From the UHGV virus genome UHGV-0350838: a DNA stretch of 10,201 bases. The stretch is one strand, 5' to 3'. Below, piece after piece: positions 7,674 through 8,657 of the stretch. This DNA is from a virus. Under the pieces are notes generated by a model, which made no database searches, was not told where the DNA came from, and saw nothing but the letters and a program-made list of their open reading frames with translations. Position 1 is the stretch's first letter. Each line of letters starts with the position of its first letter. A program made the translations under genes and the position numbers.

Positions 7674-7883
7674 GCGAAATTAACTAGAAGCCAAAGATAA
7701 AATCATCGCTGAGCAGGAGAAAATCGCTAACGGAGAAAAGACAGTAAGTCAGTATATGAAAACCGCATGATATCATCAGATAAAAATCGGTCGTAAAGCG
7801 AAATATTAATACCAGAACAAACGAGTCGAGGTAAATTATATTACCTCGATAAATTAACTAAAACTTGCCCGCTATATACTATA

Positions 7884-8486
7884 TCATTCAGTATCATCAC
7901 GCGCGGTCTGTGCATATGTCACTACCGCACCTAATATATTAATTTTCTTTTCAACATAGATAATATTATCGTACTCATAATTGCCATACGGATAGCAAAT
8001 GCGAATATTCTCATGTAGATCGGGGTCATCCACCTCAGCTCCAGAACAACTTTTTGAACTACCGGAAGTATACCGATACGGTGCAACATAAGACGATGTC
8101 TCTCCAGGCAAAAAATAAGTTAGTGTCGTAAGGGGTATAATCAGAAAAAATCCAGCAAATATGCACATCCCTGCATAAACCTTAAGGTATGCTGACAGAC
8201 TCTTCCAGCCTCTTTGTTTTACTATCCCCTTCTTAACCCAAAACAGAGATAACAGAAAAGCTATTCCCATGCTAAACAGAATGTAATAGTGGGATATACT
8301 CTGATTAAGAAACGTGACCCTGTAGATATCTGCCCGCCACCAGAAGAAAAGGAAAATAAAGATCAGCCCTGAAACTGTCATGCAAATCAAATAAGGATAC
8401 GAATCTTTTTTCATGTTTAGCGCCCATAAAATTTTTCCTGACCCGGACAAATTTACCATCCATTTTTTGCGCAGAAAATAGCTCAT
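7884..8486 (-). CDS. Hypothetical multi-pass membrane protein (three predicted TM helices plus a roughly 75-aa Cys/Tyr-rich C-terminal domain), up to 200 aa; start codon uncertain
   Basis: Long ORF in a markedly AT-rich segment, opposite in orientation to the surrounding PL operon; hydrophobic spans YLICMTVSGLIFIFLFFWW, YYILFSMGIAFLLSLFWV and VYAGMCIFAGFFLIIPLTTLTYFL. None of the candidate starts (8484-8486, 8457-8459, 8412-8414) has a clear Shine-Dalgarno. Not a protein I recognise. Confidence 0.72.
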   Translation of the reverse strand: MSYFLRKKWMVNLSGSGKILWALNMKKDSYPYLICMTVSGLIFIFLFFWWRADIYRVTFLNQSISHYYILFSMGIAFLLSLFWVKKGIVKQRGWKSLSAYLKVYAGMCIFAGFFLIIPLTTLTYFLPGETSSYVAPYRYTSGSSKSCSGAEVDDPDLHENIRICYPYGNYEYDNIIYVEKKINILGAVVTYAQTARDDTE

Positions 8487-8657
8487 TACTTACTGCACAA
8501 TAATACACAAAATTGCGTAAATTTTTTGCATGGATTTTAGCTCTTTCAGCCGACATTTAAGGGGTAAATAGCATTTCCTAAAAGCAACTGCACCAACCCA
8601 ACAGAAGGGCTACCGCTTACGTTGAGAGCAAAAAAGTGTATAGCAGCAATGAAGAGC

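What the first reader, a model, noticed from the sequence alone, without database searches (positions are those of the whole stretch)
7680..8640. AT-rich, opposite-strand cargo gene for a 3-TM membrane protein between orf73 and xis
About 1 kb between orf73 and the 55-aa ORF is much more AT-rich than the flanking bet/exo/int DNA. It carries one long ORF (7884-8486) on the strand opposite to the whole PL operon, encoding a protein with three hydrophobic helices and a soluble Cys/Tyr-rich tail (…SKSCSGAEVDDPDLHENIRICYPYGNYEYDN…) that I cannot assign to any family. In lambda this slot holds ea22 and ea8.5 on the PL strand, so this looks like a cassette replacement. Divergent composition, reversed orientation and membrane localisation in a lysogen are the signature of a moron acting on the host or on superinfecting phage (exclusion, abortive infection or similar). 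A TATTAT -10-like hexamer preceded by TG lies about 14 nt upstream of the first ATG, so the gene may have its own promoter and a near-leaderless mRNA, which would fit expression from the repressed prophage.
Basis: partly seen in the sequence, partly recalled or inferred. Interest (0 to 1): 0.8.

Follow-up and report, generated by a model that had tools for sequence, protein, structure and literature searches.

The report
Prophage cargo gene for membrane protein
A self-contained 1-kb cassette, copied from the accessory-gene hotspot of P2-like phages into a lambda-like prophage, encodes an uncharacterised inner-membrane protein found in about one in six E. coli genomes; it is a good but untested candidate for protecting the host cell against other phages.

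Summary
Window 7686-8657 replaces lambda's ea22 and ea8.5, is AT-rich (GC 0.35-0.40), and carries one minus-strand gene for a 3-TM protein with no Pfam, NCBIfam or PADLOC match. Two details are wrong. The conserved start is Met25 (8414), giving 176 aa rather than 200. The 'TG+TATTAT' promoter with a near-leaderless mRNA is not conserved. The gene is real (dN/dS 0.09-0.17). The model shows three TM helices and a periplasmic five-stranded OB-like barrel with two invariant Cys; no structural or sequence relative of known function was found. The same cassette is in phages 434, mEp332 and 2B8 and in 915 of 5,426 complete E. coli genomes. Its relatives (46-79% identity) sit in the gpQ-gpA (old/tin) hotspot of P2-like prophages, where Rousset et al. 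2022 listed the family as untested 'system #4, 3 TM'. Nearly the whole cassette, flanks included, is P2-hotspot DNA. Chromosomal, syntenic copies exist in Enterobacter. Most likely it is a prophage-expressed envelope protein of the superinfection-exclusion type, but that function is inferred (about 0.4). It is an ordinary kind of element and a new, common, testable family.

The parts
7686..8657 (.). Replacement cassette (972 bp) occupying the lambda ea22-ea8.5 slot between orf73 (TraR-like, 7452-7673) and orf55 (8728-8895)
   Evidence: blastn against lambda: homology ends at 7685 and resumes at 8658. GC is 0.35-0.40. The same cassette at 98-99.7% identity is in phages 434, mEp332 and 2B8.
7884..8414 (-). 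Conserved CDS: 176-aa inner-membrane protein (stop codon 7884-7886)
   Evidence: Met25 of the 200-aa ORF is invariant and homologues are 169-186 aa. dN/dS is 0.09-0.17 against P2-borne copies. PGAP aa in strain JML285. GenBank M60848 'ORF-22+' places the start in the same neighbourhood (mapped by hand to about 8427, not an exact match to 8414).
8415..8486 (-). Non-conserved in-frame extension (24 codons), probably 5' untranslated leader rather than coding
   Evidence: The frame upstream of the conserved ATG is open only in the lambdoid lineage. ATG 8486 is ATC or ATG-TAG in P2-borne copies.
8334..8399 (-). TM helix 1 (residues 6-27 of the 176-aa protein)
   Evidence: Hydropathy; AlphaFold helix 5-31.
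8232..8297 (-). TM helix 2 (residues 40-61)
   Evidence: Hydropathy; AlphaFold helix 38-61.
8109..8177 (-). TM helix 3 (residues 80-102), preceded by a K/R-rich cytoplasmic loop (residues 61-79, +6/-0)
   Evidence: The loop carries +3 to +6 charge in all 18 homologues.
7887..8108 (-). C-terminal domain (residues 103-176): five-stranded OB-like beta-barrel, predicted periplasmic, with invariant Cys123 (8046-8048) and Cys140 (7995-7997) and the motif CSGAxVxDPxLxxxIxICYPxGxY...KxxNxLGxV
7826..7849 (-). Terminator-like hairpin (9-bp stem) 35 nt downstream of the stop codon, followed by CTCGTTTGTT
   Evidence: Pattern scan. It lies within the block conserved with the E. coli P2-borne copy L014.
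8450..8458 (-). Conserved extended -10-like motif TGGTAAATT, 44 nt upstream of ATG 8414; the best candidate promoter element (inferred)
   Evidence: TGnTAnnnT lies at -44 to -48 in 14 of 25 distinct upstream sequences, including non-phage islets in Cedecea and Citrobacter. Chance is about 4.6% per sequence.
8494..8520 (-). 10-bp-phased direct repeats TTACGCA / TTGTGTA / TTGTGCA (triple TTGTGCA in P2-borne copies).
   Evidence: The repeats are conserved at -106/-96/-86 even in the 51%-identity P2 clade. The 434 annotators flagged 8497-8510 as matching the CII consensus TTGY-N6-TTGY.
8561..8636 (-). Remnant of the portal-proximal side of a P2-like genome. It is separated from the promoter block by a deletion of about 93 nt relative to P2-like prophage L014, and that deletion covers the cos-proximal sequence
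   Evidence: Local alignment to L014 -308 to -230: score 38, against shuffles 16.4 +/- 2.1 (maximum 27). The P2 cos flank CCGTCAGCGCGCAG has its counterpart inside the deleted stretch.
8658..8686 (+). Backbone terminator on the PL strand (tL4 of the phage 434 record M60848) exactly at the right junction. It belongs to the lambda-homologous DNA, not to the cassette
   Evidence: Hairpin ATCCTCGCACTGACGAGGAT followed by TTCTTTTATC. M60848 annotates it as t-L4.

Best explanation
Window 7686-8657 is an autonomous accessory ('moron') cassette that a 434-type lambdoid phage acquired from the cos-proximal gpQ-gpA hotspot of a P2-like phage, replacing ea22 and ea8.5. It carries one gene (7884-8414, minus strand, antisense to the PL operon) with its own upstream control block and terminator-like hairpin. 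The product is a 176-aa inner-membrane protein. Its N-terminus is cytoplasmic, it has three TM helices, a K/R-rich loop between TM2 and TM3 is cytoplasmic, and a roughly 74-residue OB-like beta-barrel with two invariant Cys (a probable disulfide) faces the periplasm. These points are shown or predicted with good support. The function is inferred: the protein is made from the repressed prophage and acts at the periplasmic face of the inner membrane as a superinfection-exclusion-type protein. It would interfere with genome entry of incoming phages, for example by binding an inner-membrane entry factor or the phage's trans-periplasmic conduit, in the way P22 SieA and HK97 gp15 are thought to act.
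For: Cassette and junctions. Real gene under purifying selection: dN/dS 0.09-0.17 with saturated dS, and 77 of 80 IMG/VR copies intact. Structure and topology: full model pLDDT 84, domain model 91.6; positive-inside pattern in all 18 homologues; two invariant Cys in the predicted periplasmic domain. P2 origin: DNA homology with P2-borne copies runs from about 8636 to 7684, with one internal deletion of about 93 nt. In IMG/VR, 64 lambdoid copies are all >=95% identical while 15 P2 copies span 46-79% and always lie between portal and gpA. Seven of 10 sampled non-lambdoid protein clusters are in that hotspot. The hotspot holds the exclusion genes old and tin and many validated anti-phage systems (PMC9122126). 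P2's old-tin mRNA starts at the equivalent position and in the same orientation. The family is 'system #4, 3 TM, 470 occurrences' in that paper's Table S5B. Autonomy: conserved upstream block with an extended -10-like motif, and a terminator-like hairpin. Retention: the gene is intact in decayed prophages of O157:H7 and JML285 whose neighbours are pseudogenes. Precedent: the same window carries sieB, another exclusion gene antisense to PL. P22 SieA is a 162-164-aa 3-TM inner-membrane protein with its own promoter that blocks DNA injection (PMC10461980).
Against: No experiment on this family was found; Rousset et al. catalogued it but did not test it, and there is no PADLOC hit. Hotspot location is not proof of defence: the commonest P2-hotspot cargo is StbA/StbB, which carry plasmid-stability (Plasmid_stab_B/StbA) Pfam domains. 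Enterobacter species carry a syntenic copy at host GC next to the same GGDEF gene, and Klebsiella, Cedecea and Citrobacter have non-phage chromosomal copies, which suggests a cellular role. There is no homology to SieA (hhalign probability 0.2%). The promoter is inferred from conservation only, and no transcript data were available. The gene can be lost: IS1203 truncates it in one genome.
Confidence: 0.4

Rival explanations
1. Host-envelope fitness factor unrelated to phage. The protein would serve a cellular function at the periplasmic face of the inner membrane, such as envelope stress tolerance, signalling, or immunity to a membrane-acting bacteriocin or toxin. Phages would carry it as a lysogenic-conversion gene.
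For: Syntenic chromosomal orthologues at host GC occur in five Enterobacter species next to the same GGDEF gene. Non-phage chromosomal copies occur in Klebsiella, Cedecea (beside a two-component system) and Citrobacter (an islet between rstA and rstB). P2-hotspot cargo is not always defensive (StbA/StbB). Pore-forming colicin immunity proteins are also small 3-4-TM inner-membrane proteins with their own promoters (own knowledge).
Against: The phage-borne clade is the most diverse and sits in a slot enriched for anti-phage genes. No toxin, bacteriocin or partner gene is consistently linked. No Pfam match to colicin or microcin immunity families even at E<=1.
Confidence: 0.3
2. Abortive-infection or membrane effector. 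The protein would sense infection at the envelope and depolarise or permeabilise the inner membrane, killing or arresting the cell (RexB-like or TM-effector-like).
For: Transmembrane proteins in known defence systems are often suicide effectors (discussion in PMC9122126). It is a small multi-TM protein in a defence hotspot.
Against: It is a single gene with no sensor partner. The most conserved part is a folded periplasmic domain rather than the TM bundle (C-domain dN/dS 0.087-0.092 against 0.15-0.25 for the TM part in two of three comparisons; the third comparison could not be computed because synonymous sites were saturated). Stable chromosomal orthologues argue against a toxic effector.
Confidence: 0.1
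3. Phage-development function. The gene would substitute for ea22/ea8.5 in the lysis-lysogeny decision, or its antisense transcription would modulate PL-driven xis/int expression.
For: The exo-xis region genes influence lysogenisation and induction (PMC7093339, PMC3824215). The gene is convergent with PL transcription, which must cross it to reach xis and int.
Against: It is an unrelated membrane protein on the opposite strand. The same gene sits in P2-like phages and in bacterial chromosomes, where no PL/xis logic applies. Purifying selection acts on the protein.
Confidence: 0.07
4. Spurious or decaying ORF with no function.
For: It is annotated only as 'hypothetical protein', is AT-rich, has a weak Shine-Dalgarno sequence, and is occasionally disrupted by IS elements.
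Against: dN/dS is 0.09-0.17. There are 32 invariant residues across homologues at 42-78% identity. The fold prediction is confident, and the ORF is intact in 77 of 80 viral contigs and in decayed prophages.
Confidence: 0.02

Closest known systems
Rousset et al. 2022 (PMC9122126) Table S5B 'System #4' of the E. coli P2 gpA-gpQ hotspot; PHROG 1416
   Same: Same protein family. It is 51% identical over 168 residues (E 2e-56) with the same 3-TM plus C-terminal motif architecture. PHROG 1416 matches residues 113-200 at E 7e-51.
   Different: Those copies sit in P2-like prophages, whereas this one sits in a lambdoid exo-xis slot. Neither resource assigns a function, and the system was not among those tested.
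P22 SieA superinfection-exclusion protein (PMC10461980)
   Same: A prophage-encoded single protein of 162-164 aa with three predicted TM helices, located in the inner membrane, with its own promoter. It blocks DNA injection. Size, architecture and moron-like genetics are similar.
   Different: No detectable homology (hhalign probability 0.2%, BLASTP E 12). SieA's conserved motif is predicted cytoplasmic, whereas here the conserved domain is a periplasmic beta-barrel. A function is shown for SieA and not here.
P2 old and tin (lysogenic-conversion exclusion genes)
   Same: In P2-like prophages the family gene occupies the same slot and orientation: just inside cos, reading away from it and convergent with gene A.
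   Different: Old is a soluble ATPase/nuclease and Tin is also a distinct protein annotated without membrane features (own knowledge for solubility); there is no sequence relationship. The upstream block shows only weak, positional resemblance to P2's own old promoter region.
Lambda SieB (present in this window at 2457-3038, minus strand)
   Same: An exclusion gene embedded antisense in the PL operon, so a precedent for the arrangement.
   Different: A different family (PF14163). SieB acts by abortive exclusion (own knowledge).
Lambda Ea22 / Ea8.5
   Same: Same genomic slot between orf73 and orf55/xis.
   Different: They are on the PL strand and are unrelated to this protein in sequence; as described in the exo-xis literature they are non-membrane proteins implicated in the lysis-lysogeny decision (PMC7093339).
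Membrane-anchored OB-fold architectures (NfeD-type 3-TM plus OB; DUF1093)

Membership tests
P2-hotspot 'system #4 (3 TM)' / PHROG 1416 family | Significant full-length sequence similarity to the family representative | tested here: met
   BLASTP 51% identity over 168 aa, E 2e-56; PHROG 1416 E 7e-51 over the C-terminal 88 residues; profile search finds only this family.
P2-hotspot 'system #4 (3 TM)' / PHROG 1416 family | Three TM helices plus the conserved C-terminal CSGA...ICYP...LGxVV domain | tested here: met
P2-hotspot 'system #4 (3 TM)' / PHROG 1416 family | Location between gpQ (portal) and gpA of a P2-like prophage | tested here: not met
   The window copy lies between orf73 and orf55/xis of a lambdoid prophage. 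However, its flanking DNA is P2-hotspot-derived.
Moron (autonomous accessory unit in a temperate phage) | Present in some phages and absent from close relatives at the same position | tested here: met
   It replaces ea22/ea8.5 of lambda with sharp junctions at 7685 and 8658. It is present in 434, mEp332 and 2B8 only, among 50,697 phage records.
Moron (autonomous accessory unit in a temperate phage) | Nucleotide composition different from neighbouring genes | tested here: met
   GC 0.35-0.40 against 0.46-0.53 here, and 0.38-0.44 against 0.51-0.55 in P2-like hosts.
Moron (autonomous accessory unit in a temperate phage) | Own terminator | tested here: met
   Terminator-like hairpin at 7849-7826, 35 nt after the stop codon. 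This is a pattern-level match with a weak T-tract.
Moron (autonomous accessory unit in a temperate phage) | Own promoter | tested here: inconclusive
The consensus scan found no promoter upstream. A conserved extended -10-like TGnTAAATT lies at -44 in 14 of 25 upstream sequences.
Moron (autonomous accessory unit in a temperate phage) | Expression from the repressed prophage | not testable with these tools
   No transcript data were available. P2's old-tin mRNA starts at the positionally equivalent site, which is an analogy only.
SieA-type superinfection exclusion proteins | Sequence or profile homology to SieA types A-C, including the FnRYPnEAnnFNK motif | tested here: not met
   hhalign probability 0.2%; BLASTP E 12. 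The motif is absent from alignments A1 and A2.
SieA-type superinfection exclusion proteins | Small inner-membrane protein with about three TM helices | tested here: met
   Prediction only.
SieA-type superinfection exclusion proteins | Blocks DNA injection of specific phages | not testable with these tools
   This needs phage challenge and K+-efflux or DNA-entry assays.
Catalogued anti-phage defence systems (PADLOC-DB 2.0) | Match to a defence-protein HMM | tested here: not met
   No families matched at E<=1.
NfeD-like membrane OB-fold proteins | PF01957 NfeD domain, or a significant structural match | tested here: not met
Pore-forming colicin or microcin immunity proteins | Family HMM match and linkage to a bacteriocin gene | tested here: not met
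   No Pfam or NCBIfam hit. No bacteriocin gene appears in any of the neighbourhoods examined.

The most novel reading that the evidence does not exclude
This would be a new family of single-protein, periplasm-facing superinfection-exclusion factors, shuttled between P2-like and lambdoid prophages and carried by about 17% of E. coli genomes (including O157:H7, O104:H4 and Shigella). It would block genome entry of a class of phages by engaging an inner-membrane entry factor or the phage's trans-periplasmic conduit through its disulfide-bonded OB-like domain. Enterobacter would have domesticated an ancestral copy as a chromosomal gene.
Probability: 0.33. Interest if true: 0.62.

Novelty: new member of a known kind. 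Interest (0 to 1): 0.45.

Why it matters
If the protein excludes phages, it would add a very common, single-gene, envelope-level barrier to the E. coli, Shigella and Salmonella prophage repertoire. That bears on phage-therapy host range and on understanding how genomes cross the periplasm. It is unusually tractable, because classical phage 434 (and mEp332) carries it while lambda and lambda imm434 do not, so isogenic comparisons are simple. The cassette is also a clean documented case of cargo moving between two unrelated temperate-phage families, from the P2 gpQ-gpA hotspot to the lambdoid exo-xis region, with its regulatory flanks and with loss of the cos-proximal segment. It also cautions exo-xis-region studies that the ea22/ea8.5 slot is a cargo site rather than a fixed gene set.

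Tried and rejected
- **Family libraries.** Pfam, NCBIfam and PADLOC scans gave nothing significant for the window protein, and Pfam gave nothing for all 18 aligned homologues. PHROGs matched only the unannotated family 1416.
- **Profile searches.** The profile against 1.84 billion representatives returned only the family itself. One 3,074-aa repeat protein matched a 37-residue stretch, which I judged uninformative. The profile against PDB sequences gave nothing below E 0.38.
- **SieA homology.** Rejected.
Rejected, because neither the hexamer nor ATG 8486 is conserved.
- **CII-dependent promoter** (the 434 annotators' TTGY-N6-TTGY site at 8497-8510). Considered unlikely. The repeats are a conserved triple TTGTGCA array in P2-like phages, which as far as I know lack a CII homologue (own knowledge, not tested), and they do not sit at -35 of any conserved -10.
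- **Homology of the upstream block to reference P2's old promoter.** Weak; only a positional analogy and a similar triple TGCA-type repeat. The canonical P2 cos 19-mer was not found in the P2-like loci examined, so the statement that the deletion removed cos is inferred from a conserved flanking sequence.
- **The 56-aa ORF annotated upstream in 434 and mEp332** (window 8490-8660). It is frameshifted here by a 1-nt deletion and overlaps the conserved non-coding block, so I treated it as not a gene.
- **Literature.** Searches on the exo-xis region, mEp332, 434 exclusion, the RefSeq accessions and ORF55/434 found no functional report. K-12 CPS-53 has no copy. Rfam finds no RNA family in the cassette.
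Full report
**1. What is in the sequence**

The window is the immunity and PL arm of a lambdoid prophage integrated at att-lambda, next to ybhC. Pfam confirms CII, a P22-type Cro, an S24 repressor, N, SieB (antisense), Gam and a TraR-like orf73. bet, exo, xis and int are evident from ORFs and RefSeq annotation.

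The reported ORF, 7884-8486 on the minus strand (200 aa), exists. GC falls to 0.36-0.40 across about 7650-8700. It is 0.53 for bet-exo and 0.46 for the immediate flanks. The 2700-4500 stretch of the same window is equally AT-rich, so the composition is atypical for the neighbours but not for the phage as a whole.

blastn against lambda gives sharp junctions. Homology ends at 7685, 15 bp into ea22, and resumes at 8658, just after ea8.5. So 972 bp replace the 1,024 bp that hold ea22 and ea8.5.

**2. Corrections to the gene model**

An alignment of 19 homologues at 42-96% identity shows Met25 invariant, and the preceding 24 residues have no counterpart in most homologues. In P2-borne copies the window's first ATG is ATC or ATG-TAG. 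The frame upstream of the conserved ATG is open only in the lambdoid lineage. PGAP calls the 176-aa form in one genome. The old 434 record M60848 places the start of 'ORF-22+' in the same neighbourhood; my hand mapping put it near 8427 and I did not reconcile it with 8414. The CDS is therefore 7884-8414, 176 aa.

The gene is real. dN/dS against P2-borne copies is 0.09-0.17 with saturated synonymous sites, and in two of three comparisons the C-terminal domain is the more constrained part; the third could not be computed.

**3. The protein**

Hydropathy and an AlphaFold model (pLDDT 84, pTM 0.65) give three TM helices followed by a five-stranded beta domain. Modelled alone, that domain reaches pLDDT 91.6.

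In all 18 aligned homologues the N-terminus (+1 to +2) and the TM2-TM3 loop (+3 to +6) are positively charged. By the positive-inside rule this puts the C-terminal domain in the periplasm. Two invariant Cys flank a beta-hairpin there, consistent with a disulfide. This is inferred, because I could not read the model coordinates.

**4. Distribution and origin**

The cassette is 98-99.7% identical in phages 434, mEp332 and 2B8. These are the only carriers among 50,697 phage records. It is in 915 of 5,426 complete E. coli genomes and is always annotated 'hypothetical protein'. Carriers include the decayed ybhC prophage of O157:H7 and a remnant near torI/dsdC in strain JML285, where the gene is intact among pseudogenes. 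One genome has it truncated by IS1203.

More distant homologues at 46-79% identity sit in P2-like prophages, between portal gene Q and replication gene A, convergent with A. They occur in E. coli, Salmonella, Klebsiella michiganensis, Enterobacter hormaechei and metagenomes.

In IMG/VR, the 80 loci split as follows:

| Context | Loci | Identity to window protein | Position |
|---|---|---|---|
| Lambdoid | 64 | >=95% | always antisense to exo/orf73/orf55/xis/int |
| P2-like | 15 | 46-79% | always between portal and gpA |
| Unclassified | 1 | 46% | not determined |

The P2 slot is the cos-proximal hotspot that holds old and tin and many validated anti-phage systems (PMC9122126). That paper's Table S5B lists 'system #4' with no Pfam, 470 occurrences and '3 TM'. 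Its sequence is 51% identical to the window protein (E 2e-56). It is absent from the paper's tables of tested systems.

DNA homology between the window and an E. coli P2-borne copy (L014) runs from 137 nt upstream of the ATG to about 90 nt past the stop. It picks up again near the left junction at 7684. A sensitive alignment extends it upstream to about 8636, across an internal deletion of about 93 nt relative to L014 (score 38, against shuffles 16.4 +/- 2.1). The deleted stretch contains the counterpart of the sequence that flanks cos in P2.

So almost the whole replacement is P2-hotspot DNA taken across the cos junction, minus the cos-proximal piece. The near-clonal lambdoid clade set against the diverse P2 clade points to one recent P2-to-lambdoid transfer, followed by spread among lambdoid prophages.

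A third group is chromosomal. Five Enterobacter species carry a syntenic copy at host GC next to the same GGDEF gene. Klebsiella, Pseudescherichia, Cedecea and Citrobacter have non-phage copies. The family is confined to Enterobacteriaceae: only 10 loci among 185,579 species representatives.

**5. Regulation**

However, the TG abuts it directly, no usable -35 exists, the consensus scan did not flag it, and it is CAGTAT or CACTAT in P2-borne copies. It lies in the spacer of a 10-bp-phased repeat array. That array is a triple TTGTGCA at -106/-96/-86 in P2-borne copies, conserved even in the 51%-identity clade. The window keeps two good copies and one degenerate copy. The 434 annotators read two of these repeats as a CII site. 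Their conservation in P2-like phages, which as far as I know lack a CII homologue (own knowledge, not tested), argues for another ligand or role, which remains unresolved.

A better-conserved candidate is TGGTAAATT at 8458-8450. It has canonical extended -10 spacing and occurs at -44 to -48 in 14 of 25 distinct upstream sequences, including non-phage islets. Chance is about 4.6% per sequence. A terminator-like hairpin at 7849-7826 follows the stop codon and lies in the conserved block.

In reference P2 the old-tin mRNA starts are mapped at the positionally equivalent site and orientation. Sequence homology to that promoter is weak. Autonomous expression is therefore plausible but inferred.

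**6. Mechanism**

The following is shown or well predicted: this is a mobile, selected, single-gene cassette encoding an inner-membrane protein with a conserved periplasmic barrel.

The function is inferred from several lines:
- its residence in the old/tin slot;
- its antisense, self-contained layout, with sieB in the same window as a precedent;
- its retention in decayed prophages;
- its architectural similarity to P22 SieA, which is 162-164 aa with 3 TM helices, has its own promoter and blocks DNA injection (PMC10461980).

On this basis the most likely role is superinfection-exclusion-type protection acting at genome entry, at a confidence of about 0.4. It is not a SieA homologue.

The main rival (about 0.3) is a non-phage envelope function. 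It is supported by the syntenic Enterobacter orthologues and by the fact that hotspot cargo is not always defensive (StbA/StbB). An abortive-infection effector, a role in phage development and a spurious ORF are less likely.

**7. Verdict**

The kind of element is ordinary: a prophage accessory cassette. The family is uncharacterised, very common and experimentally accessible through phage 434. The start codon, the promoter detail and the implied uniqueness are not. Interest is moderate.

Noticed in passing
window 7122-7398: A 229-bp segment (7122-7350) is inverted relative to lambda, 434, mEp332, O128:H27 90-9281 and O157:H7. It is bounded by a perfect 49-nt inverted repeat (7122-7170 / 7350-7398). 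About 44 nt present in the relatives are missing, and the inversion destroys a 71-aa ORF that all relatives keep (PGAP WP_000188870.1). None of 3,317 E. coli genomes with this region has the arrangement in one piece. It could be a rare foldback rearrangement or an assembly or editing artefact.
   Followed up: partly
window ~8606: A 1-nt deletion relative to 434 and mEp332 frameshifts the 56-aa 'putative membrane protein' ORF those records annotate at the equivalent of 8490-8660 (minus strand). That ORF overlaps the conserved non-coding upstream block and is probably not a gene.
   Followed up: yes
window 8494-8520 and P2-like loci L006, L014, L025, L105-L117 at -106/-96/-86: A triple 10-bp-phased TTGTGCA direct repeat is conserved upstream of the gene in P2-like prophages, even where the protein is only 51% identical. 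Reference P2 has three phased ATGCA repeats before the mapped old-tin transcription starts. The ligand or function is unknown; candidates are a regulator site or a cos-adjacent packaging element.
   Followed up: partly
window 2457-3038 (minus strand): A SieB superinfection-exclusion homologue (PF14163, E 2.5e-22) is also antisense to the PL operon, so this prophage carries at least two antisense accessory genes in its PL arm.
   Followed up: partly
window 4585-4643 (plus strand): Rfam Lambda_thermo (the cIII thermoregulator element) at 88.5 bits. It is the only Rfam family in the window.
   Followed up: no
window 3512-3961 (plus strand): A 149-aa ORF on the PL strand has no Pfam match and, by eye, contains hydrophobic stretches (TM character not computed). 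It may be another uncharacterised membrane protein in an AT-rich part of the PL arm.
   Followed up: no
L024 (E. coli O157:H7 WS4202), L028 (JML285), L029 (AUSMDU00002545): The 3-TM gene is intact in two heavily decayed prophage remnants: bet truncated and int frameshifted in one; exo and tail-fibre-assembly pseudogenes and an IS4 remnant in the other. It is truncated by IS1203 in a third genome.
   Followed up: partly
L032 (contig JARKOR010000073.1): A 3.5-kb contig binned as 'Candidatus Nanosynbacter' carries a 100%-identical copy of the gene next to a lambda exo at 96% identity. This is almost certainly a mis-binned E. coli prophage fragment.
   Followed up: partly
L011, L034-L037, L041 (Enterobacter spp.): The chromosomal orthologue is always convergent with the same GGDEF-domain gene (83-87% identity). 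In three of the six loci (L011, L034, L041) an intact LysR-family gene lies directly upstream, and a fourth (L036) keeps only fragments. This hints at a conserved chromosomal module.
   Followed up: partly
P0122 (3,074-aa protein from the profile search): A giant repeat protein matched profile positions 122-158 in 10 repeats (E 8e-8). This is probably convergent similarity of a short Cys-containing beta motif. Its source and context were not examined.
   Followed up: no
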